Shown one piece after another: positions 26,963 through 58,208 of a stretch of 64,000 bases of DNA. Made by a program: the position numbers and the translations under genes. The stretch is from Strigamia acuminata (Eukaryota). The stretch lies in the NCBI GenBank assembly GCA_949358305.1, contig OX442314.1, forward strand, positions 33,418,001 to 33,482,000, given 5' to 3'. The notes beneath the pieces were generated by a model. The model had not been told where the DNA came from and did not search any database. It saw nothing but the letters and a program-made list of their open reading frames with translations. Within the stretch, counting starts at the first letter, position 1; each line of letters starts with the position of its first letter.

Positions 26963-27403
26963 AGAGGAGCGAAAAGTGTATCTTAATTATGCGTTTTTAA
27001 GATTTTTCATTCGAAATTCGAAAGTTAGATTACATTGCATCTGCCATGCGGCTAAAAGTTATTCATTTAAAATGGGTACATAACCTTTTTTAAGGTTATT
27101 TCAAAGCTATGAGAGAAATTTTTTATTGCTCTTCCTATGACCTTAAAGGATTTTGAAGAGATTTGAATTTTTTTCCATCGTTTTTTGAATAAAACTCATT
27201 TTTTTGCGGTTTTTTTTAAAAATAAAATTGAATTTTTCATCAATTTTGAATTAAATTGAGTTTTTAAAAAAATGTTTTTGAATCAAATTGAATTCTCAAA
27301 AGATTTACATGAGGCTTTGTGATGTTATTTTGTAAATTTTTAATTTATTAATTCTTTATTAATTCTTTTAATTTTACAGCGGATATCAATATCAAATACA
27401 GAC

Positions 27404-38310: not shown

Positions 38311-38983
38311 TGTCACGATTAATTCTGTTGGTATAATTAATTCCTAACAATATTGCGCAAAAACTAATTCGCGCAATAGTAATGGGCAACGTTCGTAGAT
38401 TTCCCTAAACCTTGTTTCCTTCAAATGAGGACATCCAGAAACTCAGGAAACCTAATACTCGCGTTTGACTAACATAATTTATATTGGACAGTTTTTTGCT
38501 TACGGCGGGTGTTGTAGTCGTAAAAGAATGGAAGCACGATGATATTAACCTAAAGTGGAAAGGGGATATCATCGGGCAGTGATAATATAAAAGATGGCGG
38601 CTTAGAAAATAGCGCAATAGGGTTAGATGTAAGAGCGCTTGTTGAAGGCGCAAATCATAGCAGACTAAATCTAAATGTTACTAAGGGAAATTGGTGTTAT
38701 CCGTTAGAGAGCATAAGAAGAAGTGATTAAACTTAGGATGATTGGAAAGAGGAAAACTCAGTCATGTGACTGGTCAGATCAATTAGAGAAGGGGGTGGAA
38801 AGGTGAAAATAGGAGTTCAATTGTTAAGAATAATGATATGCGCATCATCCAGATTGCGCATTCATTAAATGAAGATGAGTAAGCGAGATGAATCATTACG
38901 AGTGTCAGAAACAAGAAAATATTATAAGAAATAAGATTGGGTTATTCTAAAATAAAAATAGGCGGGTAGACGTGCCCGTGACA
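38311..38983 (-). repeat. 3' LTR of the large Gypsy element
   Basis: TGTCACG...CGTGACA inverted ends; about 6 substitutions versus 58209-58881. Confidence 0.97.
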
Positions 38984-38996
38984 TCCCCCTCCCCTT
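38984..38996 (-). promoter_or_regulatory. Polypurine tract
   Basis: AAGGGGAGGGGGA on the minus strand, abutting the 3' LTR. Confidence 0.92.
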
Positions 38997-39376
38997 AAAC
39001 CTTTATTATAGTTGTTGAAATAAAGGCAAAGAGAGAGAGACTCACTCAGATCAATACAACAATAATACTCTGGGATAAATACAATCAAATCTTGGTTAAC
39101 ATACGAAATAAATGTCTAGATTAACATACTCTTGATTAAATATGATGATTATGACTATTCGGGATCGTCACCAGATAATAATAATAAACAAAAATCAAAA
39201 ATTAACTCATCAGGAAGCTTGAGAATAAATCTACCGACCGACTTGTAAATGAAAATTATAAATCAGTAAGGTTAGGAATAATAAACAAACATTTTCAAAT
39301 AAACTGTATAAAAATCATCGAATAAAGCCTAAACAATTTTTATGGACGAAGACAAGACTAACTAAACACGCGACGC

Positions 39377-39449
39377 CAGGGCCGTTTCGACCTATGAGGC
39401 AAAGAGGCGGCCGCCTCAGGCGGCACACTGACAGGGGCGGCATAGAAAT

Positions 39450-39480
<31 letters not shown>

Positions 39481-39542
39481 GGGGGGGGGGGCGGCATTTT
39501 TAATGCTCGCCTCACCACAGATATTTACTAGGAACGGCCCTG
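39377..39542. mobile_element. hAT-type MITE in the Gypsy 3' UTR
   Basis: Same as 6040-6205; TSD CGCGACGC. Confidence 0.9.
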
Positions 39543-40496
39543 CGCGACGCTCACAGGAGGACATGGACTAAATCTTTTAGGATTGGACGGACTTGAGGCT
39601 ATACACTTTAGTTCAATTTCAGCACAATAAAAATATTTTACCCATTTGCTTGTAAAACGAAGCAATAAATTTCTACGCGGATAAATTTTAAACACGAAAA
39701 ATATACAACTAAAGAACGTCACAAGAGAATTTATCTTACGAACAGGGGGTTTTATTCGGATTGGATACCTTTAAGGAATATGGCGCAAATAAATGCGCAA
39801 AACAAAACAAGGTAAGGGATACGATACATGAATGTACACTTAACATCAGGTAGGTATATAAGGAATGATGGGAGAAATAAACGTAAAACATGAAAATTGC
39901 GCAATATTGGCGCGATAAACAAAAATATAAACATGACACTATTTGGAATCATCAAAGGAAAACAATAAAAATGGGGATAAAGGCATCCTCATGCACAACC
40001 GGACCGGTTGCCACGGGAAAATTATCACGGTTAGAAACATTAGGCATTATGAAAATTGAATAAATACTAAATTTGAAAAATCACAATAATATATCACAGT
40101 TATGAGTATCACAAATAATTATCACTATCATGACCTATTCCAGTAATTCAAATGATACAAACTAAAATTAAACGTAATCATCTCAATTTGAGGAATTTTA
40201 AAAATTAGAATAATTTCTGGAATAAATCAGGATTTAAATTCAAAATTATCACAATATAATGAAATTATAATAATGGGAAATAATAAGAATAAAGGCACTT
40301 TAGACACTAAAAGTCACTAATTGTTCGGCTAACAGTCTGGTCTAAAACGTCAAAAATAAAATATAACTAAATGAAAACACTTCACTTTTTGGAGCACTTA
40401 TCCAGCGGTGATGAAGATCAGATAAATTTGCGCAATAAATGTTTCCAGCAGTCTGTGGAATATTACACTTGTTGAAAAACACTTAGCACAAAATGA

Positions 40497-40877
40497 TGAT
40501 GAAAAACACAAACACAACGGCCAGAACACAAAATCAGTTCCTCAACTCCGTAGAGAAATTTTAGGAGGGCGCTATAAGAAATTGATGCTCTGGGACGTGT
40601 GAGATGAATTTGTATGATGAAATATTTCACTCGCATCCATAATGGTGGCGAGAAACAAAACCAGTTCCGCAACTCCGTAGAGAAATTTTAGGCGGGCGCT
40701 ATAAGGAGTTGTTCTCGGGGCACTAAACGAATAGCTGAGATGAAATACACTTTACTTCTAACTCATATGTGGGGATGAGAATAAGACCAGTTCCGTAACT
40801 CAGATGAGAAATTTTACACGGGCGCTATAAGGAAATATTCTCACATCGTTGAACGAGTAGAAGTGATGAAATACACT
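40497..40877 (-). ncRNA. Putative cis-acting structured RNA array: three tandem long hairpins in the Gypsy 3' UTR
   Basis: Compensatory stems CCUC/GAGG, CCGC/GCGG, CCGU/ACGG and CCAGAGCA/UGUUCUGG, CGAGAACA/UG(U)UUCUCG, UGAGAAUA/UAUUCUCA. cUACGg loop in two units. G-U pairs fit the minus strand only. Confidence 0.7.
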
Positions 40878-41004
40878 TTTCGGTGTTGATTTTGTAGTTG
40901 AATTGCGCAAAGAGAATGGTGGCGCAAAATGGGTAGTCCTACGGTCTTCCGAGTGACGATGTTGTTGTCCCGTAGAATATCTAATTTAATGAAATCGTTA
41001 TTGT

Positions 41005-44000
41005 TTATTGAGAGTTACCCGACAAGGTTCGGTAAGGTGTTGGCATTCGAAATGATTTTATCATGTTTAACGCCACGTTGACCACAACTCTCATCGCGTC
41101 TCGGTAGTTGGTGGCACCTTGCCGGTTAATCTCATTTCTACAATGGTCCAAGAAGAGTTCTCCGTATCGGCGATACAGCGAATTGAGGAGTGGTCTGGCC
41201 TCTTCCGGGCTCATGCGTAGGTCTGCAGATGCGAGGGATTGGAAAAGTTGGCGAACTGACGAAGCAGACATTCCAAATTGGAGGCACGGTCCGTTGGCAT
41301 TCGCAAAATTGCATTCGACCGCAGCTGGTGGCAGAAGGCTGGGGAGCAGCTCCAGGGTGATGCGGGGTGGCGTGTCATCCCAAATTTGCGATCCTTGAGC
41401 CGGTGGAATAGATGGTGCTGTCATCGGGTAAAAACCTGAATCCGTCATCAGATTGCGCAATTCTTGAAGGCGCAATTCATCCGACCGTCTCTTTTCTTCC
41501 TCTTTTTCTGCTTGCTCACGAGCTTTGCGTTCGGCTGCTTTGCGGTGGGCTTCTGCAACTCGGGTTTTTTCCAACTCGTGCTCCGCCTCTCGTTCTTGGC
41601 GTCTTTTCTCCTCCATCATATTATTATAGTCTCTGTTGTCCTGGACTTTGTAAAGGTGGACGGAGATCTCACGATGAAGGGTCCATATCAAGATCTCAAT
41701 TGCGGTTTCGGAGTCGTACGTGCTACACTCGGACATTCGTTTTTCAACTTGTCGCGCAATGTAGGGCCGTTTGTCCATCATTTCTTTTTGGGTCGTGCGA
41801 AAATCTCCTTGGTAGACGCTAAAATCTTCTATCATCATGAAGGTGATGAGTGTGTTCCAGGCCTTCCAGGGGATTTGGAAACGAGTTTGGGAAACTCCGG
41901 GTCCCTTGATGGAGATCTGGACCTCGAATTTGCGCAAGAATTCTTCTACGACTTCCAACGAGTTAACTGGTTTTTGGGTCACTCCATACTTGTCATACGC
42001 CAATTCGCAACGGAAAGCGACTTTTTTAAATGAAAGTCCAGGTCCGATATTTGGAATTGCGCAGTCGAGTCGGGATCGGTAAGGTGATGAGTCCGAAACG
42101 AGAGTCGACGTCACTGGAATCTTTGCGGTGGCAGCCGTTGTGGTGGACATGTTAAAGTTGGCGCCCGACGACGTTGTTGAGGTTACATTGCGCGGGATTT
42201 CATACTAAGGTCGAAATAACTAAGGTCGAAATTATTCCTTTTCATAAAATATTTTCTTAGTCGTATGTAACTAAGGGCGAAATGATTAAAGTCGAAATTA
42301 CACATACCGAAATGACTAAAGTCGAAATGAATAAGGTCGAAATCCTGTTCCTATCTTATTCATGAATAAGGTCGAAATCCTGTTCCTATCTTATTCATGA
42401 ATAAGGTCGAAATGACTAAGGTCGAAATCCTGTTTCGACCTTATTCATGAATAAGGTCGAAACACAACATTTTTATATGAATAAGGTCGAAACACAAAAA
42501 CTCAAAAACACGAGAATTTCACACGATAATCTTGTGTCTTCTCTCGTTCTGTAATAACATAAAAAATGTTTTTAATCACATGTTTTTAGTATTTTCAGGA
42601 AACCAGAGCAGCTTCTAGAACTAACCTTTTCTCATTTATTAAAACTAAAAACACACGTAAAAAATAGTACGAAACTCTATTAAAACTGGAAAAACACGTA
42701 AAAGATCATAACCATGAAAAACCAATTAAAACATAAAAAAAAACCTGAAAAATCACCAAAAAACCGAAAAAAAACTGGGAAAAAAACATTAAAAACCGTA
42801 AAAAAGGGTTTAAAAATGAAAAAAACCCTAATAAATCGTAAAAAAATGATAAAAACGAGTTAAAACCAGTTGAAAACCATGAAAAACAATGAAAAACCAA
42901 AAAAAAATATGGCGTCAATGTGCTGCAGTGAAGCACCGGGTAAATGCGCTAAGCAGCCTGCCGGCACGCATTTTGTAATAGATACGGTGTTTTGGGCAGT
43001 GTTTTTTCCATTGTTTAATCAGGCCAGTGTGTTACCAGTAGTAACCCACTTTATAGTGCCAATTAACTTTCCAAAAAGAAATGAAATCAAAGTCAAAAGG
43101 AAAACAAATTTATTTAGGCTAAAATGAATTTTTTTTTTATTACTTATTTACATAATAAATGAGAAAAATGAGAAAAGGTTAGTTCTAGAAGCTGCTCTGG
43201 TTTCCTGAAAATACTAAAAACATGTGATAAAAAACATTTTTTATGTTATTACAGAACGAGAGAAGACACGAGATTTTGTTTCGACCTTATTCATATAAAA
43301 ATTTTGTGTTTCGACCTTATTCATGAATAAGATCGAAATTACATATAAAAAAATTGACTACAGTCGAATTGACTAAGGTCGAAATCCTGCTTCTTCCTTA
43401 TTCATGAATAAGGTCGAAATAACTAAGGTCGAAATCCTTTTTTTTTACCTTATTCATGAATAAGGTCGAAATTACATATACAGTAATGACTGGGGTCGAA
43501 ATAACTAAGGTCGAAATCCAGTTTCGACCTTATTCATTTCGACCCAAGTATCCCATCCCCATTGCGCCCAGGAAATTGCGCATAAGTAATCGGCGTCACT
43601 GGTAAAGTTGGAATGTTTGAAAGTTTTACCTGTTGGCACGATGAAACTTCGATTGCTGGTGCAATTGGCGAAATCGTGTAGGTTTGTGAAAACACATCGG
43701 CCGAAGCAACAGGGGCAGTCGACGCTGGTAACGGCGACGGTGAAGCTGGAAAAAGATCGGCAGATAAATTTTCATTAATATTTGAATTGTCAGTCTCAGG
43801 ATCAGGAATTGGTGAATTCGGTGTTGATGCTGATAATTGCGCTTTCACTGCTGGTGTCAGTCTAGCGCTCAGTGGCGGTCCGCGTGGCTTGTTGACGACA
43901 GCGCGGGGATCACGTAATCGGGAAGAACCAGGCTTAACAGATGGAATGTCGATATCCCGGATGTCAATCATCTTTCGTTCAAGTCTGCGGACGTCACTGA

Positions 44001-45225
44001 TTTTAGCGGTGGGAACACTACCGCGAATTTCGTTCGTGATGTCCAGAATCGACGGGGTCACACTCATCGTGGATTGTGCATCGAATTCTACAGGTCCAGC
44101 GGCAGCAAGTGAACGTCGAGAATCGTCCATGCTTTCATTGCGCAATTTTTCTTGCGCGGAATCGTCCGCTAGCACTGATGGTTCTGGAATGAATTGCAGT
44201 TGTGGCACTGGTCGAAGCGCCGTCTCTGTTGGTGGAGTTGAAAATTCAACATTAGACACAGTGGAATTGGAGTACAAACTTTCGGTTTCCTCTTTGTCGG
44301 TTACGGTGAGCGTAGCCATTTTCTCGGCCGCTTTGGCAATTGTCTCCGCCGAGGGTCTGGGCACGAATTGTTCCGTCTCCGTGTCTCGAGTAGGATCATG
44401 TGGAAGCGCAGACGATGAGGATGCCAAAGTGTTGCGCACCTTGATGGCTAGTTGCTGCTCTCGATTTGGATTTTGATTCATCGAGCATGGTGGTTTACGC
44501 TGGTAGAAATATGGCAGCGCGGTGTCGGAGTTGTCGTCGATCGTGTTGAGGTCTCCTAGCGACTCCAATGCAATGCTGATCTGTTCTTGAAGACTCGCAT
44601 CGGTCCCTGGGAAGCTGTGAAAGAACTGGGGCAACGTTGGTTGCGCTTCATCCACCTCCCGCTGTTCTTGGTCCATCAGGTCCAAACCGGCGATTTCGTC
44701 GGCGAGCAAATTCGGCACTTGCGCAAAGGTGACGCGCATCAACTCGGCTGTCGGGTAAATCCAATTTCTGGGCACGATTCTCGCCTGTCTCGCCTCTCGC
44801 TGGAGTCGATGCCAATATTTAAAATGACTGGCGCGGAATCTTTGTACCATTGCTGGGGTCCCGTTCGGTGGCCGGAATTGTGGAAACTCCACTCCGATTA
44901 AATATACCTTGTCCTGGACACGACGAAACAGGCACCAGCCATAAATCTGGCGCATCCACACACGATAAAATCCGCGTCGCAGGTCGCCCCGTCCGTCACA
45001 CGCTCGGCACGTCTTAGCCACACCCGAGACAGCAAGTTCATAACCATATCCGGAACAAACCGGACATATTTCGAAGTTGGGAAAGCTCTGTTCACGTGGA
45101 TCGTTCGGATGCCAGCATGGAAATTTAGGCGGTCCGACTGCGTGAAGCGGTGGTTCGGCATAATTTTTCGGATAGGGTTCGCCTGGGAAATCCTCCTTGC
45201 ACCGACATACATGTTTGTCAGCCAT
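41005..45225 (-). pseudogene. Gypsy ORF3: 948-aa protein of unknown function once the MITE is removed (45225-43568 joined to 42193-41005)
   Basis: Junction reads ...YAQFPGRN-VTSTTSSGANFN-MSTTT... with no stop (2847 nt). N-terminal CPVCSGYG...CRACDGRG, Ser/Pro/Thr-rich middle, charged helical segment. Start context ACAACATGG. Confidence 0.88.
42194..43559. mobile_element. Foldback-type MITE disrupting ORF3
   Basis: 8-bp TSD CATTGCGC; inverted arms with AAGGTCGAAA repeats. Confidence 0.9.
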
Positions 45226-45960
45226 GTTGTCTTAACTGATTGAGGTTGTGCCTAATTGATTTCAATTATCTGGTTTATATAAACGAATTCAAACAATAGA
45301 TATATGACAAACGTTACTTACAATTAGAATTGCGCAAATAATGAACGCGCACAAAACATAACACACGAAGTTTCAACACATGATGTTAATCCATAGAAGA
45401 AGAGTGCACGAGTATCAAACGCTTCGAGAACTTTCTCACACAGGTGTCATAAAAGCACATGGGTATAAAGTGTGGGTGTTTGAGGTTAGTCGTAACTGTT
45501 TCAATAGAACGACGAACTCTAGTGTGGGGAATTGGAAGTTAACGAAAGATTGTAAATGAATGTTCTAGAAGAAGTAATCAAATTTAACGTTTGTCTTCAA
45601 TGAAAAAGTTTAGCATATGCAAATCTAGATACGCATAGACACATAAAACTAAATTGAAATAATAAATTGGAAAAAATAAACAATCTAAACACGTGGTGTT
45701 TTGAAAATTCAATTATAAGTGTCACACTCTAGTGGACAATCTTGTCCCTACTAGAAATGGACTTAGTCAATTTTGAAACGAATAAATATGAAACGTAGAA
45801 CGAATAACATAAAACATAAAATATTTAAGAATAAAGAAACATAAAAACATAAATGAAATTTTTTCTTCAAAGTTACGATGAAATTACACCGGATTACATT
45901 GGATTTTTTTTTTTGTTTTCTTTTTTTTTTTTTTTTTTTTGAAAAAATAATCGGAAAAAA

Positions 45961-46988
45961 TTATTTGAAAGAAAGAAAATAAGCAGTGAAAATATCTAGT
46001 GTGTTAGCAGTATAGTTTTCGACATGCTTGTCGATAATTTCGACATCTTTTAAGGTTAGGAAATTAATTTGCGCAAAATGCCAATGGCGAAGTTCAACAA
46101 CGTTGTATGGTTGTGTTTTTCTGCCATTTTGGTCCATTAAGATGACAGTGTTGGGGCCCACCAATTTGTGAATGATATAGACTCCCTCAGTTCGCTGGCG
46201 TAAGCCTGCTGCAAACTGTCTGTCGGCGGAAGAGGGTTGCCGATTGCGCAACCTTACCCAATCGCCAGGACGAAAATCGTGTGCGCGACGATTCAAATCG
46301 AACCATTTTTTGTGGCGGATCTGGGATTCGCGCAAATTGTTCATCGCCCTTTCTCGCATGGTGGTAAAGGTTCCCCATCATCTGTGTCACTATCAATGTC
46401 ACCAGGGAATCTGGCTTCTTGGCCTGTAACTAACTTAAATGGAGAGTACTTTAACGAAATTTGATACGCCAAATTGATTGCCAAAACAAAATAACCGATA
46501 TTTACATCCCACCTGTCGTGGTCGTCTATGTAGGCCAAAATGCAGTTCTTTAAGGATTGGTTCAGGCGTTCGGCAATATTGCCTTGGGGGTGGTATGCTG
46601 CAGTGTAGCGGTTTACTGCGCCTAATTGCTGGATTTGGCTGCGAAACTCAGGTGATCGAAAAGCAGGGGCATTGTCGCTGATTATAATTTTGGGGAAACC
46701 CCAACGTTTCGTAAATTTCTGAATTTGCGCAATTGAAGTTGCGATGGTCGAATCTTCCGTTAGTCTTACGTCTAACCAACGACTCGCTGAGTCGACCATT
46801 ACGAAGGCATAGCAATGGCCGCCCACTGAACGTGGTTTTTTGCCATAGTAATCAATGTATATTGCGGAAAACAAGTGGCGCGCTCTCGACATTATCATTT
46901 TGCCATAAGGCAAGCGATTTAATGGTTTCGCGCGTTGGCAAGCCTCGCAAACCTGGATCCATGTTTGGACATCTTCTCTCATTTTGGG
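45961..46988 (-). pseudogene. pol: Integrase core and C-terminus of the large Gypsy pol
   Basis: CEACQ, IDYYG, SDNA and AERLN (D,D35E) motifs. Preceded by TGA at 46989-46991 where the conserved Trp is expected; frameshift near 46350. Confidence 0.92.
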
Positions 46989-49210
46989 TCAATAAACACG
47001 CGTCTTTAAACGATGGAGGGTTTTTTCTCTTCCCATGTGTCCCACTACTGGAGGGTAATGCATTGCGCGGAAATATCGTTCGCGCAATTCCAAGGGGAGA
47101 TAAATTTGACGCCTTTTGCGTATTTCATTAATGTGGACTGGTGGAAATCGACACAACATATCTTTATGCATACCAAAATTTTGCGCGCCTTTTTGAACTT
47201 GCGCAGCTTCGACTGGATCGACCGGCAGCATTTGAGCAGTTAAGTAGAATATCAACTCACGCGACCATGGATCTTGTCTCTGAGCAGCTATTATTTCAGC
47301 GGCATCTGGTAACATTTCAAATGGTGGATGTTCAATGGGTGGATCGTGTTCCAATTCAGCCTGTTGTTCCGCTTCAGTGAGCCTTCTGTCCGATTCTGTA
47401 AATGTTCGTTCAGATCTCGGGCGTAGCCTTGTCGGAGTTTGAGGCATTCCACCTCTTGGCACTGGATATTCCACCGGCGAAGGAAAGTCTCGGATCGGAC
47501 TAAAACTGTCAGTGTCTGATGACGAAGTGTCAGAGTCCGGCTCGGAAGTGTATCCATCGGGGCGTTGTTGTCCAGAGGGTCCTGGTCCGGGGTCGAACAC
47601 TGGGGGCACAGTCGGTGCTGTATCAGTTGTTGTTGACGGCGAAGACACAGGAGAGGTTGGAGGAATAGGAGATGGTGATATTGGAATGGGTTGAGTAGGA
47701 GAAGGTGTGGGAAAATTTGGAATTTGGATAGATGTTGATTTTGGTGTAGGTTTTGGCCTTGGTGGCAAAATATGAGAAGGAATTCCAGCTGACTTTCGGG
47801 GTCGTCCTTTAGGTCTAGGAATTGGTGGAGTTGGTATTTTGGAAACAGGAGTTGGTGTGGAAATAATTTTTTTACGAGGAGGTAGAATATGGGAAGGAAT
47901 TCCAGATGACTTTCTGGGTATTCCTTTTGGTTGTAAAGTAGGGAGAGTTGGAGCTGGAGGAATGGAAATTTCTGATTTGCTTGGAGAACTGGGTTGGTTA
48001 GGGAGCGTAGGAGCAGGAATAAGAACAGGAACAGGACTGGGAGGTGCTGTGGGAATGGGGGAAACCACTAAACGAGGTGTTTTTGGCGTCCTTTTACCTT
48101 TTCCAACTTTCTGTGCTTTTAGCAATTTTGGATGTTTCCATTTCTTAATATTAGCTCCATATCTCGGTAATTTTGGAGATATTTTCGGAACCAAAGTGGG
48201 GTCTCTTAATCGAGCTCGAGTTCTTGTCGCAATAGCACGTTTGGCACGAGGGGAGAGCACTGGAATTATCATAATCTTACGTGGTCGTCCTCTTTTCTTC
48301 GTCAATATTGGAATTAATGAATGTTGTCTGCGCGTACGAAGTGGCACTGAAACACGAACTGATGGAGAATTAGGTGAAATTACTGGTGATGTTACTGGAG
48401 TTGTTTGTTGAGTTGGTTGCGCAACTGGAGTTGGCGCAGTTGATGGTGTCGTGCTCACAGTAGTTCGACGAGGAATGAGGGATTTCCTTTTTCCTTTCGT
48501 TTGTTTAGTCGGTGAAATGGCTGAAATTAAAGTTGATTTAATAAATTTATCTTTAAACATTTTCTTAAACTGTCTATTAATGTCTTTTGGCAACTCGGAG
48601 ATGATTGACAATGCTGGCCATTGATTTCCGTCGTCGAAGTACGCCATATAACACGCTTCATCGACGAGTGGACTGTCATCTTCCTCGTCATATTCGGGTG
48701 GGTCGACCGGTGCTCGACTTAATGCGTCGGCCACTCGATTCTTGCACCCTGAGCAGTGTAGGAACGTGAATTTGTATTCGCTTAGTGAGAGTACCCAACG
48801 AGCAAGTCGGCCCGTTGGCTCTCTTTGCTGAAATAACCACTTCAAAGAACGATGATCACTCTCTAAATAAAATGGCATCATTTCTAAATAAGCGCGGAAA
48901 CGTTTCACTGCCCACACGGCTGCTAGGCACTCAATTTCAGTCACATTATAGTTTTTCTCAGCACTGTTAAGCGCACGAGAAGCGAAAGCTATTGGTATCC
49001 TTTCTCCTGCGTCATTTAATTGCATTAAAGCCGTCCCCAAACCGGAGTAGCTTGCATCTGTTTGAAGGATGAATGGCTTTTTCCAGCTGGGAAAACGTCT
49101 CTTTAGCGTTGGAGTCGCTATTTGATCTTTAAGATAATCAAAAGCTTCTTGTTGCGCTTCGTTCCAATGCCAAACGGCATCTTTTTTAAGTAATGGTCGG
49201 AATACCTCAC
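46989..49210 (-). pseudogene. pol: RT connection, RNase H, long low-complexity insert and integrase zinc-finger start of the large Gypsy pol
   Basis: LQTDASYSGLG, ECLAAVWAVKRF, SDHRSL and ADALSR motifs, then about 450 aa rich in P/T/S/K/R, then H.PPVVGHMG.EKT. Confidence 0.92.
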
Positions 49211-52200
49211 TGTAGTGTTGCGTACAACTGTCAATAGCTGGCGCTGTCAGCATGATCACCTGGCGGCGCATGGCATTTGATCACATGCTGAATAAAGCTG
49301 AGTAATCAGTTCATCACCTGAATGCATCGCGTCCACTTCCTTTGCGTAGCTAGAACCTCACATTGGCGACGAGGATAAACAGAATGCTAAATCCAGTGCC
49401 ATCAAGTATTTTGGAATAAAATTTGGACAGTTGCAGAGACTATTACGATGGCAACCGGGTTAAATTTGCCGACAGTGGCAAATTTCGTGTTAAGTGACGG
49501 TAATTTGGACCAAAAATGGAAAAAATGGTCAAGTGCATTTGAATTCTATTTGTTGGCGGCAAATATCGTCGAGGACACTCAAAAAAAGGCTTTGTTGTTA
49601 CATCTCGCCGGTCAGGACGTGCAGGACATATATGGGACGTTTGGGATGAAAGATAAGAAGAATTATGATGCGACCGTGACAGCACTGGCGACATATTTCA
49701 ATCCGCGCAAAAATTTGCGTTATGAACGCCATATTTTTCGCCAGCAAGCGCAGGATGGCGCCGAATCGATGGACACATACGTGACGAGGCTTAAAACACT
49801 AGTGAAAACATGTGAGTACGGCACTTTAGAAGATGATTTGTTAGTTGATCAAATTATAGAAAAAGGCCGAGATAAGGCATTAAGACGCAGGTTACTACGT
49901 GAAGAGACAGTCACATTGGATTCGGTGTTAAAAATGGCGCGAGCTGCCGAAGCGAGCGAAAAACATGCCGTTTTGATGGAGCGAGATGGAGGAGCGAAAA
50001 TTAAAGAAGAAGACGTGAGTCAAATACGAGAGGAGAAGAAATCGTTTAGAGGAAGAGGAACGAAGCGAGCCGGAAGTCAATTCCGAAAATCTGGAGCAAA
50101 ACCACAAAATATCGGCGATCGGCAGGGAAGCAAACCGCGAGAAGGTGCGGAGTGTTTCCGTTGTGGCCGTGCAGGTCATCTGGCCAACGAGTGTACCATT
50201 GCGAAGGACAAAGAATGTGGATTCTGCCACAAGCTTGGGCACTTTGCGAAGGTTTGCCGAATGAAAAATGCAACGCCGGGACGAGGTCGAGGTGCGAAAG
50301 ACCGCGTACAATACGTCGGCGTGAGTGGAAGTCCAGATGGATATGACAGTGATTGCTCGTTTCGAATAGCGACGTCGATGAAGGAGGACTGTGTAAGAGT
50401 GACAATCGCGCAACAGGAGGTAAAAATGCTTATCGATTCGGGTTCGTCAGCGAACTTGATAAACTTAGAAACATGGAACTTATTGAAGAAGCGAGGAGTG
50501 ATTGCACAGCCATCCACGACGACGTTGTATGCGTACGGTATAAAAACTCCTTTAAAAATAAGTGGACAATTTTTTGCAGAAATTAAGAAAGGAGATCGAA
50601 CAGTTAATGCGAAATTTGTGATCGTTCCGTCGGGAGATGTGTCGTTGCTGAGCAGGCGGACTTCAAAGGAACTAGGGGTGTTGAAAATAGAAGAAGAAAT
50701 AATCCGTTCCGTGGAGGAGAACGCTGCACTGGACGAGACATTGCTTGGAGTACGGGGCGAGTTAGCCGATAAAGTGAGAAAACATCGAAATTTATTTGTA
50801 GGAATCGGAAAATTAAAGGACTATGAGCTGGAACTTTACATTGACGAAACAGTGAAACCAGTTGCACAGAGTGTACGACGTATACCGTTTCACATTCGCA
50901 AACAGGTGGATCTGGAAATCGATAGACTGCTCGCCGAGGATATCATCGAACCGGTGACCGGACCGACAGACTGGGTGTCACCTATGGTCCCAGTGAAGAA
51001 AGCGGACGGGACAATCCGAATCTGCTTGGATATGCGAGCCGTCAACCAAGCGGTAAAGCGCCGGCGCCATCCACTTCCAACAATGGAAGAAGTTTTGGAA
51101 GAAATTGATGGGGCCGAGGTGATTTCCAAACTCGACTGCAGATGGGGGTATCTGCAGATACCGCTGCGAGAAGATTCACGTAAATATACGGTTTTTGTAA
51201 CCCACCGTGGGTTATTTCGTTATAAAAGACTTTTCTTCGGGATTGCTTCGGCACCCGAAGAGTATCAGCAGATTGTCCAGACTATTCTCGAGGAATGCGA
51301 GGGGACGAAAAATAGTCTGGACGACATTGTCGTTCACGGCAAGACAGTCGCGGAGCACGACGCGAGGCTGGTGAAAGTGTTAGAAGTCCTAGAGAAGAAT
51401 GGACTAACTTTGAATGCTAAAAAGTGCTGTTTCGGACTAACTAAGTTGAATTTTTTAGGTCATGTCATTTCTAAACACGGGATTTCAGTGGCCGACCAGA
51501 AAATCAAAGCGGTGAAGGATGCGAGTTCACCGAAGACGGAGACGGAAGTGCGTAGTTTCTTGGGTTTGGTGAATTATTGCGGAAGGTACATCAAGGACTT
51601 TGCCACCCTAGCGGAACCGCTGCGAGTAGTCACGAGGAAAAGCGGAGGTTTTAAGTGGGGCAAGGAACAAGAGAAGGCGTTCGTGTTGTTGAAGGAGGCG
51701 CTTTGCAGGGCCGAGACGTTGGCATTTTTCCGAAAAAATGCGCAGACGAGGTTGATCGTCGACGCGTCTCCAGTCGGGCTCGGGGCGGTCCTCGTGCAGC
51801 GACAGACGGACGGACACAACCAACCAATTGCGTACGCGAGTCGTACGTTATCCCAAGTTGAGCGCAGATACAGCCAAACGGAGAAGGAGGCGCTCGCAGT
51901 CGTTTGGGGCTGCGAGCGTTTTCGAATTTACCTCATCGGATTAGCGTTCGAATTAATTACCGACCATAAAGCGTTGGAGGTAATTTATTCAGTAAAGAGT
52001 AGGCCATCGGCGCGCATCGAAAGATGGGTATTGAGGCTTCAACCTTTCGAGTTTTCGATACGGCACAAGCCGGGATCGACGAACATCGCAGATGCCCTTT
52101 CGCGACTACTTCCAGAAGGGGAAGGAAAAACCATAGTTGGAGAGACAGAGAAGCATGTTCATTTTATTATGGCGAATGCAGTACCGAAAGCGATGACTCT

Positions 52201-53871
52201 GGAAGAAGTGAAATTGGCGTCACGGAACGATACCGAAATATGTGCTATTTTGGATTGCGTGAAACGAGAGAAGAAGTTTAGCAAGGAATTACAACGTTTT
52301 GAAATAATGAGACATGAATTATCGGCGAAGTCGGGAGTTTTGTTGCGAGGAACACGCATTGTAATGCCGAGAAGCTTGAGGAAGAAAGTCATTAACATTG
52401 CACACGAAGGTCACCAAGGAATTGTTCGCACCAAACAGCGATTACGACAGAAAGTATGGTGGCCGGGAATGGACGAAGAGGTGAAAGCAGTAGTTCAACA
52501 ATGCCGGGCATGTCAGTTTGGAGGCGCAACGGAGAAGGCAGAGCCGATCCGAAGTACTGTTTTGCCTAAAGGACCTTGGCGGAATTTAGCCATCGATATT
52601 TGCGGACCGTTCGACGATGGACGTTCAATCGTGGTACTCGTGGATTATTATTCGCGCTGGCCGGAAGCGGCAGTGTTAAAATCTACGAGAGCGGAGAAGT
52701 TAATCGAGTGGTTGGAGCAGGTATTCGAGAATTGGGGTTTACCAGAGAGTATAACGTCGGACAACGGGCCCCAATTTGTTTCGGGTGAATTTCGGACATT
52801 TATGAAGGACCTGGGGATACAGCATCGAAGGGTAACACCGTATTGGCCTCAGGCCAATGGCCAAGTTGAACGCCTGAATAAATGCTTCGTGAAAGCGTTT
52901 CGTGCAGCACGCGTAGAAAACCAGGGTTGGAAAAAGAGTCTGGGAAAATTCTTACAGAGCTACCGTAGCACGCCGCACCGAACGACAGGCGCGACGCCTT
53001 TTGAACTGATGACGGGACGGAAAATGCGTGATAAAATCCCGCAAGTATTACAAGAACAGAAGGGCAAGTTGCATCGAGAGGTGAAGATGAAAGATGCAAT
53101 TGAAAAGAAGAAGACGAAAGATTACGCGGATGCGAGAAGGAAAAGCGAGGAAAACACCATTTCCATTGGAGACAGTGTGTTAGTTTCCAAGCCAAGGAAG
53201 CATAAGCTTGACACGGCATTTGAAGAAGGAGTAGCGATAGTCCAGCGGAGATCCGGAAATGCGGTGCTCTTAAGAATGCCAGATGGGAGATGTGTAAAGC
53301 GAAATATCTCGCACGTGAAGCGTTTCATACCGATTGAAGACGATGAGTTGCTGCTGCCAATACCAAACAACAGAGCAGATGCGTTAGAGGAGATTCCAGA
53401 AGCAGAGATGGATGCACCACAGCCTGTGGCACCCCCAGTGCGAGACGAACCACCATTGCGGAGGTCTGCCAGAGAGCGACGTCCACCAGACTTCTTAGGA
53501 ATCGCGAAGTGATGACAAGGAAGTGTTGTTTAATGAATTTACGATGAATAATATTGCTAAAAGAATTCTTTATTAATTGTTCAGGCCTGAACCAAAATTG
53601 TTAGAGTTACGAATTAATGAGATATGTAGAATCGATTAATTTTATTGTCGTTATATAATTTAATTTATATGTTTTATTATTTCCTCCTATGGAGGTTAAT
53701 TGTTAAAGAAAAAGAGTGATGTAGTGTTGCGTACAACTGTCAATAGCTGGCGCTGTCAGCATGATCACCTGGCGGCGCATGGCATTTGATCACATGCTGA
53801 ATAAAGCTGAGTAATCAGTTCATCACCTGAATGCATCGCGTCCACTTCCTTTGCGTAGCTAGAACCTCACA
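49211..53871 (+). mobile_element. Intact Mag-like Ty3/Gypsy LTR retrotransposon (4661 bp) nested antisense in the host pol
   Basis: 152-bp LTRs (49211-49362, 53720-53871) with no differences seen; 5-bp TSD CTCAC; PBS TGGCGACGAGGAT (tRNA-Ser(GCT)-type); PPT AAAGAAAAAGAGTGA. Confidence 0.97.
49448..53512 (+). CDS. gag-pol: Single-frame Gag-Pol polyprotein (1354 aa)
   Basis: Two CCHC knuckles, protease LIDSGS, RT (RLFFG, SLDD), RNase H (VDAS, EKEALAV, TDHK, ADALSR) and integrase HHCC + D,D35E; no stops. Confidence 0.97.
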   Translation: MATGLNLPTVANFVLSDGNLDQKWKKWSSAFEFYLLAANIVEDTQKKALLLHLAGQDVQDIYGTFGMKDKKNYDATVTALATYFNPRKNLRYERHIFRQQAQDGAESMDTYVTRLKTLVKTCEYGTLEDDLLVDQIIEKGRDKALRRRLLREETVTLDSVLKMARAAEASEKHAVLMERDGGAKIKEEDVSQIREEKKSFRGRGTKRAGSQFRKSGAKPQNIGDRQGSKPREGAECFRCGRAGHLANECTIAKDKECGFCHKLGHFAKVCRMKNATPGRGRGAKDRVQYVGVSGSPDGYDSDCSFRIATSMKEDCVRVTIAQQEVKMLIDSGSSANLINLETWNLLKKRGVIAQPSTTTLYAYGIKTPLKISGQFFAEIKKGDRTVNAKFVIVPSGDVSLLSRRTSKELGVLKIEEEIIRSVEENAALDETLLGVRGELADKVRKHRNLFVGIGKLKDYELELYIDETVKPVAQSVRRIPFHIRKQVDLEIDRLLAEDIIEPVTGPTDWVSPMVPVKKADGTIRICLDMRAVNQAVKRRRHPLPTMEEVLEEIDGAEVISKLDCRWGYLQIPLREDSRKYTVFVTHRGLFRYKRLFFGIASAPEEYQQIVQTILEECEGTKNSLDDIVVHGKTVAEHDARLVKVLEVLEKNGLTLNAKKCCFGLTKLNFLGHVISKHGISVADQKIKAVKDASSPKTETEVRSFLGLVNYCGRYIKDFATLAEPLRVVTRKSGGFKWGKEQEKAFVLLKEALCRAETLAFFRKNAQTRLIVDASPVGLGAVLVQRQTDGHNQPIAYASRTLSQVERRYSQTEKEALAVVWGCERFRIYLIGLAFELITDHKALEVIYSVKSRPSARIERWVLRLQPFEFSIRHKPGSTNIADALSRLLPEGEGKTIVGETEKHVHFIMANAVPKAMTLEEVKLASRNDTEICAILDCVKREKKFSKELQRFEIMRHELSAKSGVLLRGTRIVMPRSLRKKVINIAHEGHQGIVRTKQRLRQKVWWPGMDEEVKAVVQQCRACQFGGATEKAEPIRSTVLPKGPWRNLAIDICGPFDDGRSIVVLVDYYSRWPEAAVLKSTRAEKLIEWLEQVFENWGLPESITSDNGPQFVSGEFRTFMKDLGIQHRRVTPYWPQANGQVERLNKCFVKAFRAARVENQGWKKSLGKFLQSYRSTPHRTTGATPFELMTGRKMRDKIPQVLQEQKGKLHREVKMKDAIEKKKTKDYADARRKSEENTISIGDSVLVSKPRKHKLDTAFEEGVAIVQRRSGNAVLLRMPDGRCVKRNISHVKRFIPIEDDELLLPIPNNRADALEEIPEAEMDAPQPVAPPVRDEPPLRRSARERRPPDFLGIAK

Positions 53872-55354
53872 CTCACTTGTCTTGGAAAAGTTCGCAATAA
53901 AAGATTGATAATAACCCACCATACCTTTGAAACGTTGTAACTCGCGCAAATTTGTTGGCGCAGGATAATTTTGGATAGCTGACACTTTTTTTGGATTTGG
54001 AGAAATTTGACCAGATTCCACGATGTGGCCCAGAACTTCGAGGCGCTGTTGACAGAGCTCGGTTTTGTTGGCGTTCATGGTGAAACCGGCGTCAAACAGT
54101 TCTTCCAAGACGAGGCGCAAATGTTGAACATGCTCCTCAAATGTTTTGCTAAAAATAATAACATCATCAATGTATACAAATACAAATTTGTACAAATATT
54201 TGGCCAAGGTTTTGTTCATCGCTCTTTGGAGTGTTGCAGGGCCGTTGATGGGGCCAAAGGGCATACGAACGTATTCAAACAGTCCTCTATGTGTGATGAA
54301 GGCCAAGAATCGCTCATCTCCCTTGCGCACTCCGATCTGGTGAAAGGCCTCGCGCCCGTCGATTATCGAGAACCAATGTGCACCTCCTAAATACGCAAAT
54401 ATATTGTCTATATCCGGAAGTGGATACACATCCGGAATTGTTTGCGCATTTATGGGTCGGAAGTCCATCGCTGTTCTCCATTCTCCGGTCTTTTTGGGCA
54501 CGACCACTGGAGCGACGGCGCAATCACTTTGTGAACGGCGAATTATACCTTGTTGTAGTTTCTTATCGATGTATCTGTCAATAATTGCCTTTTTCGCAGG
54601 GTTTACAGGTCGTACTGGCACATGAATCGGACGAAAATCCGGTTTCAAATTAACCTCATATTCCGTATTATTACATAAACCGATTTCCTCACGGAAAATC
54701 TGCGAAATTGGCTGGAAAGTTTCTATTAGTAGTTTAATTTGCGTAATAGTCAAATGGTTCCATAACTGGTGGTAAATCCAATCGAGATCGGTCGGATTCT
54801 CACTGGGCTGGTACTGTAAAAAGTTGATGTTGTTAACAATTGGATTTGAGTCATTCTCACCATTATCAGGTTGCGGAGAGGCGTTGGTGTTGTTGATTAA
54901 CTTCTTTTTGTCGTTAATATCCTTTGGCTCGTTGCGCAATCAATAGTTTGGCGATGGGACAAATAACATTCAATTTGTGACGAAGGCGGCGCAGTCGGCG
55001 AAATTGACTTAATGTTAACTTACGAGAAATGATTTTCTTTACTTTACTCGAAGCTCTCGCAGTTTCCTTCCGCTTTGGTGACCAAACATTTGACCACGTC
55101 GTTCGACTGCGGTGCCTAATTGTCTTTATTTGACGTTGTGAGTCGTCGTTCGGATACTCAAAAACCTCATTTTTCAATGGTTGATGTAATAGCAACACAC
55201 AGTTAATGTCATTGGGTGGGGGTGGTCTCTTGAGTATTTTATTTGGAACAATCTCACTTATTTTAGCTGATGGAGTTGCTGATTTATCCAGTTCCTCCGG
55301 TGCCATTGGTAATACGAGAATTGACTCGGATTTTTTGGCGTCTTCATAGGTCAC
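53872..55354 (-). pseudogene. pol: Reverse transcriptase of the large Gypsy pol, with upstream linker
   Basis: WRTAMDFRPIN, YPLPDID, RMPFG and YIDDVIIFS motifs; frameshift near 54930. Rejoins 49210 as NFSKTSE|VFRPLLKK when the nested element is removed. Confidence 0.95.
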
Positions 55355-55357
55355 GAA

Positions 55358-56287
55358 TTAACGAATTTCGTCTGAGCCAGCCAAGCTCCACTGGCTCCGT
55401 CCATGATCGATGGTTGCTCCGACTGCTTGATTAAAGTCTCGTCCGAGGATCAAGTCATTTTTGGCATCAGGCAACACTAAACACACGAATTTTACTACTC
55501 CTAATGGCGCTCGCAACGCAAGCGTCACTGATTTTGAGGCAGTAACTACATGTCCAGAAGCGACCTGTACTTTTTCATGTAAATTAATAAATTCGAGTCC
55601 CATTTTTTCGTGAAGTTGTTGAAATAATTCCTCGCTCATGATACAAGTTTGAGCACCTGAATCTAGAAGCGCGGTAAATGATACGTTTGCCCAAGATATT
55701 TTTACGCATGGAGCTTCTCTGCGCAATCTATCTGCGCGTGTTATCTCAATAATTGGTTCTTGAGATTCTCTAAGCTCTTCCGATGTCAACATGACAAAAG
55801 ATACCTTCATTGGAGCGATCACTTCCTTGGGCGCTTCCGCTGAATTGACACTGGAAGTAGTCTTAATAATGGGTAATTTAAGGTTTTTACTCACATTCTT
55901 GGTGATTTGTTTCTGTGCAGTCGCAATTTGCAAAGCTGTCGACTTCGAAACAGGTCCAGATGCTAGTTGGAAAGCCACAGGTTGCAAAACTGAGGTTTTC
56001 CTTTGATTCGTCACTGTCGGTGATGAAGATGAAGATGTGGACGATACAACACTAATTCCGGGTTTAGACTCACGAGGAGTGACAGAAAGAGTAGTTGTTA
56101 CTGGAATAATCCTATCGGAAATGTTCTCGTCAAGGGTGATGTCGGGTGGAGCACGTCTTGTTGATTCCACACGTTTTACGCTTGTGGAGACCGGTTGGTT
56201 TACTTGCGGCCTGGTTCCGCCGGTCGAGGAAACTTCAGGCCGTCGGAGTTTTCCTGCCTCTCGAAAACTTTGTAGCACACAGGACAA
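55358..56287 (-). pseudogene. pol: Aspartic protease region of the large Gypsy pol (-1 frame relative to gag)
   Basis: LLDSGAQ and LILGRDF motifs; an in-frame TAA at 55358-55360 interrupts pol. Confidence 0.9.
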
Positions 56288-58107
56288 ATAGGGCGCCAGG
56301 TTGAGTTTTCAATCATAAACCACCAATCCTTTTTTGTTTTGCGCCAAGCTGCACCTTTTTCGGGAAACTTGACACTTGTTGGAGGTTTTGGTGATGACGG
56401 AAATGTAACAACGGAGGTAGAACAGACATGGTCCTTTGGGAGATCTGCAGGGGGCGCAATTGTGGTTGAATTTACTGAAATGTTCACCTTTTGCGCAGCT
56501 CCGGCGACAGAACTCTTTTTGGTGTCCACTTCCGGTTCCGACTCGCTGCTGCTACTTGAATTTGGTTCCTGTGGCGGCGAAGGTCGCTCAGGTCGGGCTT
56601 CCAGCGCAGCTAGTTCTAACATAAGTTGTTGTTTACGATAGCGCGTAAAACGTCTGGCGTCGTTGGACGTGGAAGGTTTAGGTTCGGCTTCACCTCTGGA
56701 CTTGTCCACGGATTTCAACACGGTGGGGGATGAGGGGTTTGCTTCTGAAAAAGGTGCAAACTGATCAACGAGACCCAAGTTTTTATACTCAGTTTTGCGG
56801 TGAGAGTCGAGTAGTAGTCGATTGTCCACGTCGTTTCCCATTTGAATTGCTTCGTCAATTGTTTTGACGTGCATTGTTCTCAAAAGTTGGACAACGTCGG
56901 ACAACAGCATGTTCTGTGCTTTCTCCCATTGTAATCCAGGGTCTGTGTAGCCTGCAATTTCTAAATAGTATATTATTTCGCTGAGGAAAGTCATGGTGGA
57001 TTCTCCACTGCGTTGCTTGCGATTTGCTATTTTCACGTTGGCAGCCGCTGAATTCATGGAGAATGCCTTACGAAACAATGCCTCGAAATCATTCCACGTT
57101 TTGGGTTTTGGTTTAAGTGCCAACCACCAACGTTGCGCCTTATTACGGGTTGCTTGAATTATATTTACTTTCAAATACTCCTCCTCGGGCATGCGTGTGG
57201 AATACATATGCGCATATAATTGCGCAAGAAACAAATTAACAGAGTCAAGTGTAGCCTTCTCAGGGTCAAAGTATGGGAGTTTTTCCTTATAATTGTTATA
57301 TCCTCGGGAAGAGTCCTCTCGTCTTACTCGAATTGATGGTAGAGACAATTGGGCCCTTACTTCGGATGGGTGCCCTGTGTTGTTAATTTTGGCACATAAT
57401 AAAGAATTCATCACCTGCTGATTGGCTTTTGTTGAATCCACAATTTGTGATGCCACGGACGGACATTGAGTAAAAGTAGTGGCCTGCGTCATTACCGGTG
57501 GCGTTGTTGTTGTAGACGTCGGTTGCGCAGTGATGGTTGTGGGCGCAATTTGTTGTTGGTGGCTCGCTCCTCCACACTGAGGAACTTCCGTGGAAAGTTC
57601 ATTTCCTAATGGTGCCGAATTGCCTATTACCCTTATGGATCCATGAGAGGACCCACCATCCTCTGACGGGGGTGTCGTCGGACGTGGAGGGCTAGTGCCT
57701 TGTTGGTAAATGCTACGCATTTCTTTGAGTAATCCCTGTGCTTGAACGAAAAACTGATTACGAATATCACACATCAATAAAGCTTCGGAATGTAAAATTG
57801 CCGGATTCATTGATATTCCTGACACGCCAGGAGTGAAGAAAGCTGGAGGCACGAGCTGATACGCTGGTGTTGACGTGGCAACTGTCGTTGGCGCAGAAAT
57901 GTTTACGCCAGGTATTGGAGCCGACATGTTGTCGCGAAAAGTTTGCGGCATTGAATTCGCAATGGTTATCAATAACTCACTTTGTTCCGCTCGTGCTCGC
58001 CTTAAACGCTCATAACGATGCCAGTCGAGAGACGAAGCCAGCTCGTCCAAATCAAAGGGGTCTCTTACAGTGGGGTTTTCCTCACCGTTTCCCAACTCAT
58101 TCGACAT
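56200..58107 (-). CDS. gag: Gag of the large Gypsy element (635 aa)
   Basis: First ORF after the PBS; capsid-like motifs KAQRWW...TWNDFEALFRKAF...RKQRSGES. No intact CCHC knuckle. Confidence 0.88.
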   Translation of the reverse strand: MSNELGNGEENPTVRDPFDLDELASSLDWHRYERLRRARAEQSELLITIANSMPQTFRDNMSAPIPGVNISAPTTVATSTPAYQLVPPAFFTPGVSGISMNPAILHSEALLMCDIRNQFFVQAQGLLKEMRSIYQQGTSPPRPTTPPSEDGGSSHGSIRVIGNSAPLGNELSTEVPQCGGASHQQQIAPTTITAQPTSTTTTPPVMTQATTFTQCPSVASQIVDSTKANQQVMNSLLCAKINNTGHPSEVRAQLSLPSIRVRREDSSRGYNNYKEKLPYFDPEKATLDSVNLFLAQLYAHMYSTRMPEEEYLKVNIIQATRNKAQRWWLALKPKPKTWNDFEALFRKAFSMNSAAANVKIANRKQRSGESTMTFLSEIIYYLEIAGYTDPGLQWEKAQNMLLSDVVQLLRTMHVKTIDEAIQMGNDVDNRLLLDSHRKTEYKNLGLVDQFAPFSEANPSSPTVLKSVDKSRGEAEPKPSTSNDARRFTRYRKQQLMLELAALEARPERPSPPQEPNSSSSSESEPEVDTKKSSVAGAAQKVNISVNSTTIAPPADLPKDHVCSTSVVTFPSSPKPPTSVKFPEKGAAWRKTKKDWWFMIENSTWRPICPVCYKVFERQENSDGLKFPRPAEPGRK

Positions 58108-58188
58108 GATGAAAAAATAATGAAAATGATTAATAATTTAAACGAAAACTTAACTTTCTTGCGCGTTTTCAGCCTAAATAAGCGAGGA

Positions 58189-58205
58189 TCCTGTCAGGCT
58201 CGCCA
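58189..58205 (-). promoter_or_regulatory. Primer-binding site, tRNA-Arg(ACG)-like
   Basis: TGGCGAGCCTGACAGGA, 3 nt inside the 5' LTR. It resembles the complement of the 3' end of animal tRNA-Arg(ACG); the tRNA identity is from memory. Confidence 0.75.
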
Positions 58206-58208
58206 TGT

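What the first reader, a model, noticed from the sequence alone, without database searches (positions are those of the whole stretch)
38353..57227. Palindrome TTGCGCAA strewn across the whole large Gypsy element
Seen: exact TTGCGCAA at 38353, 39897, 40428, 40903, 41453, 41930, 44138, 44719, 45330, 46069, 46244, 46725, 48417, 54932 and 57220. That is 15 in ~14.4 kb, whereas a given 8-mer is expected about once per 65 kb at equal base frequencies. Many one-off variants (TGCGCA, GCGCAA) also occur. They lie in LTR, UTRs, ORF3, pol and gag. By eye I saw none in the nested Mag element and one (near 58988) in the other non-duplicated sequence. Known: ATTGCGCAAT is the C/EBP bZIP consensus. Inference: either distributed host-factor or ORF3 binding sites, or self-complementary RNA dimerisation/packaging signals maintained even within coding sequence.
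Basis: partly seen in the sequence, partly recalled or inferred. Interest (0 to 1): 0.75.

Follow-up and report, generated by a model that had tools for sequence, protein, structure and literature searches.

The report
Retrotransposon strewn with paired GCGC motif
A jumping gene carries the DNA word GCGCAA about six times more often than chance along its whole length, including inside its protein-coding genes and often in close pairs, likely as docking sites for a protein that would help it escape host silencing.

Summary
Confirmed and sharpened. All 15 TTGCGCAA are real, but the unit is a fixed GCGC core with preferred TT/AA flanks. GCGCAA occurs 65 times against 10.4 expected in the 13.9-kb element, and at chance level in the nested Mag element and the rest of the window. 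The excess survives codon-preserving shuffles (TTGCGCAA 8 vs 0.7-1.1; GCGCAA 42 vs 11-17), uses all three frames, and Ala-Gln is the most over-represented dipeptide. New here: GCGC cores sit in pairs 11-18 bp apart (19 vs about 6), never 4-10 apart. C/EBP is not supported: its degenerate sites and preferred flanks are not enriched. RNA hairpins are predicted but are no better than the motif alone gives, and the palindromes are predicted occluded. CpG decay does not explain it. Best reading (0.4): strand-symmetric dsDNA binding sites kept across the whole element, likely read by a protein of the element's unassigned extra ORF or an unknown host factor, working like plant VANC anti-silencing. 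No binder or function is shown, and conservation could not be tested with power. It resembles cyanobacterial HIP1, confined to one animal retrotransposon family.

The parts
58209..58881 (-). 5' LTR of the host Gypsy element (673 bp; 4 GCGCAA-type sites)
   Evidence: 99.1% identical to the 3' LTR, 6 substitutions, TG..CA ends, 4-bp target duplication AAGC
58190..58207 (-). primer-binding site, tRNA-Arg-like (tRNA identity recalled, not tested)
   Evidence: sequence next to the 5' LTR
56200..58110 (-). gag ORF, no CCHC knuckle detected; 7 motif sites incl. TTGCGCAA at 57220
   Evidence: Retrotrans_gag E=0.0006-0.001, below cut-off; site counts
55358..56308 (-). aspartyl protease frame
   Evidence: PF13650 E=4e-8
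53872..54939 (-). reverse transcriptase piece; 6 motif sites incl. TTGCGCAA at 54932
   Evidence: RVT_1 E=2e-30; best listed relatives at most 44% identical
   Evidence: GCGCAA 3 vs 3.5 expected
46341..49210 (-). RNase H, a ~480-aa Pro/basic linker with two AT-hook-like GRP motifs, and integrase (broken frame near 46989); TTGCGCAA at 46725 and 48417
   Evidence: PF17917, PF17921, PF00665; GRP motifs
43560..45231 (-). extra ORF, first piece: two CxxCxGxG motifs, then a long low-complexity region; 8 motif sites
   Evidence: DnaJ_CXXCXGXG E=0.004, below cut-off; no homologue; model pLDDT 38
42186..43559 (.). 1,374-bp secondary insert with terminal inverted repeats; 8-bp target duplication CATTGCGC, i.e. 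it landed on a motif site; otherwise free of the motif
   Evidence: contigs of three runs join across it; ends; counts
41005..42185 (-). extra ORF, second piece: helical domain, ~90-residue charged helix, C-terminal helical domain; 6 motif sites
   Evidence: no hit among 1.84 billion representatives; model pLDDT 55; only generic long-helix matches
38984..41004 (-). 3' non-coding region with polypurine tract (38984-38995) and three ~127-bp repeats; TTGCGCAA at 39897, 40428, 40903
38311..38983 (-). 3' LTR; 7 GCGC cores, three close pairs
38353..58166 (.). dispersed motif array: 90 GCGC cores, 65 GCGCAA/TTGCGC hits, 15 full palindromes and 19 pairs 11-18 bp apart in 13.9 kb (nested element, insert and 5' LTR left out)

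Best explanation
This Gypsy family carries a GCGC-core motif (best form TTGCGCAA) spread evenly over both strands of its LTRs, non-coding regions and all genes, and the sites are likely kept by selection as double-stranded-DNA docking sites for one protein that would bind them singly or in pairs 11-18 bp apart. Shown: enrichment, specificity to this element within the window, independence from codon use and frame, fixed core with soft A/T flanks, pair spacing.
For: Strand symmetry (36 GCGCAA vs 34 TTGCGC on the sense strand) fits dsDNA. Logo like a protein site: one-off variants in the flanks 20 vs 1.2 expected, in the core 4 vs 3.6 (the flank expectation is too low because GCGC was masked in the background); A/T bias reaches 3-5 bp beyond the hexamer. 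Where the protein sequence allows TTGCGCAA it is used 8 of 10 times (0.7 expected), GCGCAA 25 of 68 (7.6), TTGCGC 17 of 39 (3.5); nested element 0 of 5, 3 of 26, 0 of 17. Ala-Gln is the top dipeptide (25 vs 11.6), 15 of 25 coded GCG CAA. Even spread: 1-6 sites per kb, mean 3.6, variance 1.9. Pairs: 19 vs 6.2 (P=0.0002), in coding (12 vs 3.4) and non-coding DNA (7 vs 1.2) alike, specific to GCGC among 4-mers, none at 4-10 bp as a footprint would give. Neighbouring elements lack it, so a host-wide process is unlikely. The host is probably a centipede (neighbouring MATH gene: best of 2 hits Strigamia maritima, 48%), where most transposons are methylated (PMC7343188) and another retrotransposon has captured a methyl-CpG reader (PMC6673714).
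Against: No binder is identified: the extra ORF has no homologue or fold match. VANC motifs sit in non-coding tandem repeats, not in exons (PMC5735166). Conservation is not shown: a related family about 80% alike differs at four letters of the 47082 site and diverges at the 47201 site, with no difference listed at the 47063 site. In pairs the palindrome is second on the sense strand 8 times to 1 (P=0.04; 0.07 without the copy-private LTR site), a polarity that free dsDNA binding does not predict. 15 of 18 pairs are predicted to form RNA hairpins. A spacing range of 11-18 bp has no helical phase. Host identity rests on one 48% hit. Three of 97 control loci hold some other dispersed hexamer at a significance near or above one half of this element.
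Confidence: 0.4

Rival explanations
1. RNA-level signal: the self-complementary cores form many short hairpins or long-range pairings in the genomic RNA that serve packaging, export or compaction, read by Gag (no zinc knuckle found) or by the extra-ORF protein as CERV does for Cer1.
For: 15 of 18 close pairs pair with each other in local folds (mean 0.81); the minimum spacing of 11 equals a 6-bp stem with a 3-nt loop; weak sense-strand polarity; strand symmetry is also expected for stems; precedent for an extra-ORF RNA export factor (PMC10309623, abstract).
Against: Flank complementarity is no higher than with permuted partners (54 vs 61); hairpins are not more stable than shuffles that keep the motif (mean z -0.29, combined -1.2; 4 of 18 below -1); no GCGC pairs with the short loops that are most stable (0 at 7-10 nt); 54 of 90 cores have no close partner; cores are predicted occluded (0.14 vs 0.31), whereas self-clustering palindromes should be accessible (PMC13079385).
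Confidence: 0.23
2. Neutral drive: an element-specific mutation, repair or template-switch bias during replication converts near-matches to GCGCAA, as proposed for cyanobacterial HIP1, with no function of the sites.
For: Core one-off hexamers are slightly scarce (ratios 0.59 and 0.64 at positions 2 and 3; GCACAA 1 vs 5.8 in coding); deviations cluster at the outer letters as in HIP1 (PMC4390886); sites turn over between related families; the LTR palindrome arose in this copy by a CpG-type transition.
Against: No methyltransferase or similar domain found in the element; nested and neighbouring elements are unaffected; a letter-by-letter bias does not predict the 11-18 bp pairs; the two sites of a pair share little flanking sequence (86 vs 76, P=0.047), so local duplication explains little; CpG is not depleted (o/e 1.13) and only the GCGC context stands out (2.64; others 0.66-1.13).
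Confidence: 0.18
3. Host C/EBP (bZIP) binding sites.
For: TTGCGCAA is the optimal C/EBP homodimer site (PMC6144830, PMC9620438 passages); GCGCAA is preceded by TT/TG in 51% of cases against 21% outside.
Against: In vivo C/EBP sites are VTKNNGCAAB with a free middle (PMC6144830); here the middle is fixed and other middles are not enriched (19 sites, 1.37 per kb vs 1.5-1.7); favourable flanks 7 of 15, at chance; 17 of 20 flank variants change letters that the TK consensus requires. The reference data are mammalian.
Confidence: 0.07
4. Host NRF1/Erect-wing sites, whose half-site is TGCGC.
For: TGCGC half-sites are abundant (104 hits); NRF1 is a dimer with a flexible linker that tolerates other spacers (PMC10810270).
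Against: The preferred GCGC-NN-GCGC spacing occurs 0 times; affinity falls 3-14-fold with 3-7 bp spacers and single half-sites do not activate (PMC10810270); pairs here have 7-14 bp between cores.
Confidence: 0.05
5. Chance, tandem repeats or amino-acid composition.
For: The motif was picked after seeing the data; other elements can show a dispersed hexamer excess.
Against: Rank 1 of 2,043 hexamers at P about 1e-33; flanks unrelated between sites; 0 of 2,000 codon shuffles reach the count under either scheme; found separately in four segments.
Confidence: 0.02

Closest known systems
HIP1 (GCGATCGC) of cyanobacteria (PMC5861425 abstract; PMC4390886 abstract and passages)
   Same: Hyper-abundant GC-core palindrome inside and between genes, all frames, deviations at the outer letters, function debated between selection and biased repair.
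   Different: Genome-wide in bacteria and tied to methyltransferases; here confined to one eukaryotic retrotransposon within the window, no methyltransferase found, and with 11-18 bp pairs.
VANC/VANDAL anti-silencing of Arabidopsis (PMC5735166 passages)
   Same: Family-specific short motif repeated many times in a transposon that encodes an extra protein; motifs differ between related families.
   Different: DNA transposon; motifs non-palindromic, in non-coding tandem repeats and absent from the tested exon probes; binding and demethylation shown there, not here; no VANC similarity detected.
C/EBP and NRF1 sites (PMC6144830, PMC10810270 passages)
   Same: Optimal 8-mer equals the C/EBP palindrome; half-site TGCGC equals NRF1's.
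   Different: Tolerance pattern (fixed core, soft flanks) and spacing match neither.
CERV of Cer1 (PMC10309623 abstract) and CopiaMBD of Strigamia (PMC6673714 passages)
   Same: LTR retrotransposons with an extra protein that acts on their own nucleic acid or on methylated DNA.
   Different: No dispersed motif of this kind seen in what I read; no MBD or CERV match found here.
Host factor sites in Gypsy LTRs (PMC13486581 passages)
   Same: Gypsy elements carry transcription-factor motifs.
   Different: Screened in LTR regions only; here 64 of 90 cores lie in coding sequence.

Membership tests
Ty3/Gypsy LTR retrotransposon | LTRs with TG..CA, target duplication, PBS and PPT | tested here: met
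Ty3/Gypsy LTR retrotransposon | domain order gag-PR-RT-RH-IN | tested here: met
Ty3/Gypsy LTR retrotransposon | placement in a named lineage by RT tree | not tested
   no labelled references; best listed relatives at most 44% identical
C/EBP binding sites | optimal palindrome TTGCGCAA present | tested here: met
   15 copies
C/EBP binding sites | halo of TKNNGCAA sites with free middle | tested here: not met
   1.37 per kb vs 1.5-1.7 in controls
C/EBP binding sites | avoidance of 5' T and 3' A flanks | tested here: not met
   7 of 15 favourable, 0.51 expected
C/EBP binding sites | binding by C/EBP | not testable with these tools
   needs EMSA or ChIP
NRF1 sites | GCGC-NN-GCGC spacing | tested here: not met
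   0 occurrences
VANC-type anti-silencing system | family-specific motif repeated in the element | tested here: met
VANC-type anti-silencing system | motifs in non-coding tandem repeats | tested here: not met
   dispersed, unrelated flanks, 64 of 90 cores coding
VANC-type anti-silencing system | element-encoded VANC-like protein | tested here: inconclusive
   extra ORF without homologue or confident model
VANC-type anti-silencing system | binding and loss of methylation | not testable with these tools
   no methylome or binding data
HIP1-type iterated palindrome | excess beyond codon and frame constraints | tested here: met
HIP1-type iterated palindrome | genome-wide abundance | tested here: not met
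   chance level in 35 kb of the same window; whole genome not held
HIP1-type iterated palindrome | sites conserved between lineages | tested here: inconclusive
   few variants visible; turnover at 2 of 4 sites against a related family
Retroviral kissing-loop dimer signal | palindrome exposed in a loop | tested here: not met
   predicted unpaired probability 0.14 for 14 palindromes in 124-nt local folds; prediction only

The most novel reading that the evidence does not exclude
An animal LTR retrotransposon that encodes its own sequence-specific DNA-binding protein and has written that protein's site through its entire genome, altering its own Gag, Pol and extra-ORF proteins to fit, as a self-recognition code against host methylation: a VANC-like system arisen independently in a retroelement.
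Probability: 0.2. Interest if true: 0.85.

Novelty: new variant of a known kind. Interest (0 to 1): 0.62.

Why it matters
Iterated short motifs that override codon choice are known from bacterial genomes (HIP1), and self-encoded anti-silencing from plant DNA transposons. I found neither described across the coding body of an animal retrotransposon in the searches made. If the sites are protein docks, they give a direct handle on how a transposon marks itself as self and escapes methylation in an arthropod lineage that methylates transposons; if they are RNA signals or a replication bias, they expose an unknown step of Gypsy replication. The nested motif-free element is a built-in control.

Tried and rejected
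No whole genome held, so genome-wide frequency rests on 35 kb of the window. No close relatives in viral or metagenome contigs (best 43-51% protein identity); these served only as controls. Extra ORF: no hits by word search, representatives, Atlas, Pfam above cut-off, PDB sequences (best E 0.5), Foldseek or VIA-align (best Z 6.5 long helices; best Z 5.0 on a pLDDT-38 model); these blanks do not show a new fold. A by-eye likeness of residues ~95-120 of the first piece to methyl-CpG-binding domains (recalled) found no support. The long helix lacks a leucine-zipper pattern by eye. No RNA holder listed, so expression is untested. Conservation test from laid contigs had little power: only 40 of 1,291 variant rows were shown (none in a core; cores are 2.3% of the stretch) and 37 rows. 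CpG-decay escape rejected: CpG o/e 1.13, and 9 of 31 listed transitions involve CpG. E2F-type sites 1-2 only. Earlier scan notes: four look-ups, nothing. Complex prediction not used: no protein pair is claimed.
Full report
Observation. Exact TTGCGCAA occurs 26 times in the window against 2.46 in dinucleotide shuffles. Fifteen are at the positions listed, ten are the same sites in a 99.9%-identical duplicate (476-12810) that stops at a 200-N gap and is probably an assembly overlap, and one lies 107 bp outside the 5' LTR. The flanks of the 15 are unrelated, so this is not a tandem repeat.

The element. It lies on the minus strand between LTRs at 58209-58881 and 38311-38983 (99.1% alike, 4-bp target duplication), with gag, protease, RT, RNase H and integrase in Gypsy order. 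It is unusual in a ~480-residue Pro/basic linker with two AT-hook-like motifs between RNase H and integrase and a long extra ORF after pol. This copy is broken: a second LTR element is nested in pol (49211-53871), a 1,374-bp inverted-repeat insert splits the extra ORF (contigs of three runs join across it), and pol has frame breaks. Thousands of contigs from three runs of one organism lay on it, so it is a multi-copy family. No listed RT relative exceeds 44% identity. The neighbouring MATH gene has Strigamia maritima as the better of two hits (48%), so the host is probably a centipede; this is weak.

What is enriched. GCGCAA ranks first of 2,043 hexamers (70 vs 10.6, both LTRs and the insert included); with one LTR and without the inserts it is 65 vs 10.4 in 13.9 kb, against 3 vs 3.5 in the nested element and 14 vs 14.5 in 30 kb of the rest. 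The 8-mer adds nothing beyond its 5-mers (15 vs 10.5) and its halves are independent. One-off variants fall in the flanks (20) and not in the core (4, with 3.6 expected). Sense and antisense hits are equal (36 and 34) and the spread is even (1-6 per kb). Among 97 control loci of at least 2.5 kb (of 102 fetched; 5 shorter ones dropped; 701 kb of distant RT-bearing contigs) TTGCGCAA occurs 8 times in all and GCGCAA at most 1.12 per kb, against 3.8-6.1 in segments of this element. Against my reading: three controls (L017, L012, L045) hold another dispersed hexamer at a significance near or above one half of this element, so some dispersed bias is not unique; I did not examine them.

Inside genes. 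In 9.5 kb of coding pieces, shuffles that keep the protein and codon usage give 0.67 palindromes (maximum 5 in 2,000) against 8 seen, and 11.2 GCGCAA against 42; keeping also the next base gives 1.08 and 16.9. The nested element shows no excess. Sites use all three frames (18, 13, 3). Where the protein allows the palindrome it is used 8 of 10 times (0.7 expected); Ala-Gln is the most over-represented dipeptide (25 vs 11.6) and 15 of 25 are GCG CAA. That the motif has reshaped the proteins is an inference from this excess.

Pairs. GCGC cores lie 11-18 bp apart 19 times (6.2 expected for 10-20 bp, P=0.0002) and never 4-10 apart; the distance window was chosen after seeing the data, but GCGC is the top 4-mer for inverted pairs at this distance (19 vs 4.2) while other all-GC 4-mers are not enriched (12 vs 9.3), and the excess holds in coding and non-coding DNA separately. 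Nine of 15 palindromes have such a partner, 8 upstream and 1 downstream on the sense strand (P=0.04; 0.07 without the LTR site).

Testing the explanations. C/EBP: the in vivo consensus is VTKNNGCAAB with a free middle and disfavoured T/A flanks (PMC6144830, passages read); here other middles are not enriched and flanks are at chance. NRF1: preferred spacing absent (PMC10810270, passages). RNA: 15 of 18 pairs fold into hairpins and cores are mostly paired, but stems do not extend beyond the motif and are not more stable than motif-preserving shuffles, two clear exceptions aside (38840, 48419); loop-exposed dimer signals are not predicted. CpG decay: CpG is not depleted and only the GCGC context stands out. 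Conservation: none of 40 shown variants (of 1,291 rows) hits a core, two show a GCGC in other copies that this copy lacks; in a 371-bp integrase stretch close copies do not vary at the eight cores, but the test has little power, and a related family about 80% alike differs at two of four hexamer sites. So the pattern looks family-specific and labile.

Mechanism. Symmetry, a fixed core with soft A/T flanks, exclusion below 11 bp and pairing at a loose distance fit a dsDNA-binding protein with a footprint near 10 bp that binds as a flexibly linked dimer. A role against methylation is inferred from VANC (PMC5735166, passages) and from transposon methylation in Strigamia (PMC7343188, PMC6673714, passages). 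I put this at 0.4, RNA signals at 0.23, neutral drive at 0.18, C/EBP at 0.07, NRF1 at 0.05.

Novelty. The closest known patterns are HIP1 (PMC5861425 abstract; PMC4390886 abstract and passages) and VANC target motifs; it is a member of neither. Searches for the motif with retrotransposons (12 listings), for extra-ORF Gypsy elements and for motifs over whole elements showed no description of this in titles and abstract starts; subscription papers are not in the library and I read no supplements. Also seen: PMC10309623 (abstract), PMC13079385, PMC9620438, PMC13486581 (passages). Verdict: real, strong and unexplained; a new variant of iterated-motif systems; interest 0.62.

Noticed in passing
window 42186-43567: The 1,374-bp insert has GGGAT..ATCCC ends, internal inverted and ~15-bp direct repeats, and its 8-bp target duplication CATTGCGC contains the motif; one event, may be chance.
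   Followed up: partly
window 47202-48650 (-): About 480 residues of Pro/Thr/Lys-rich sequence with two GRP(R) AT-hook-like motifs lie in frame between RNase H and integrase; no Pfam hit. Spacers of the motif pairs are 71% A/T against 59% locally.
   Followed up: partly
window 476-12810 and 33812-46147: 12.3-kb duplicate, 99.92% identical, ending exactly at a 200-N gap: likely assembly overlap.
   Followed up: yes
window 40519-40879: Three ~127-bp diverged tandem repeats in the 3' non-coding region, each with a GGCGCTATAAG core.
   Followed up: no
window 18932-19887 and 30070-31010: Long inverted arms about 10 kb apart built of 54-bp and 35-bp tandem units, flanking a MULE transposase frame at 27344-28576; some 35-bp units contain TTGCGC.
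   Followed up: no
window 61027-61593 and 63118-63642 (-): Tandem MATH/TRAF-domain genes; best hit Strigamia maritima, 48%.
   Followed up: partly
window 46855-47225: Several further families 80-90% alike to the integrase region exist in the same runs, one at depth similar to this family.
   Followed up: partly
L017, L012, L045: Control loci with other dispersed hexamers: CCCATC 27 vs 5.5, CTCAAG 17 vs 4.2, GCCCAA 24 vs 4.9.
   Followed up: no
window 13084-13347: 22-bp tandem array right after the assembly gap.
   Followed up: no
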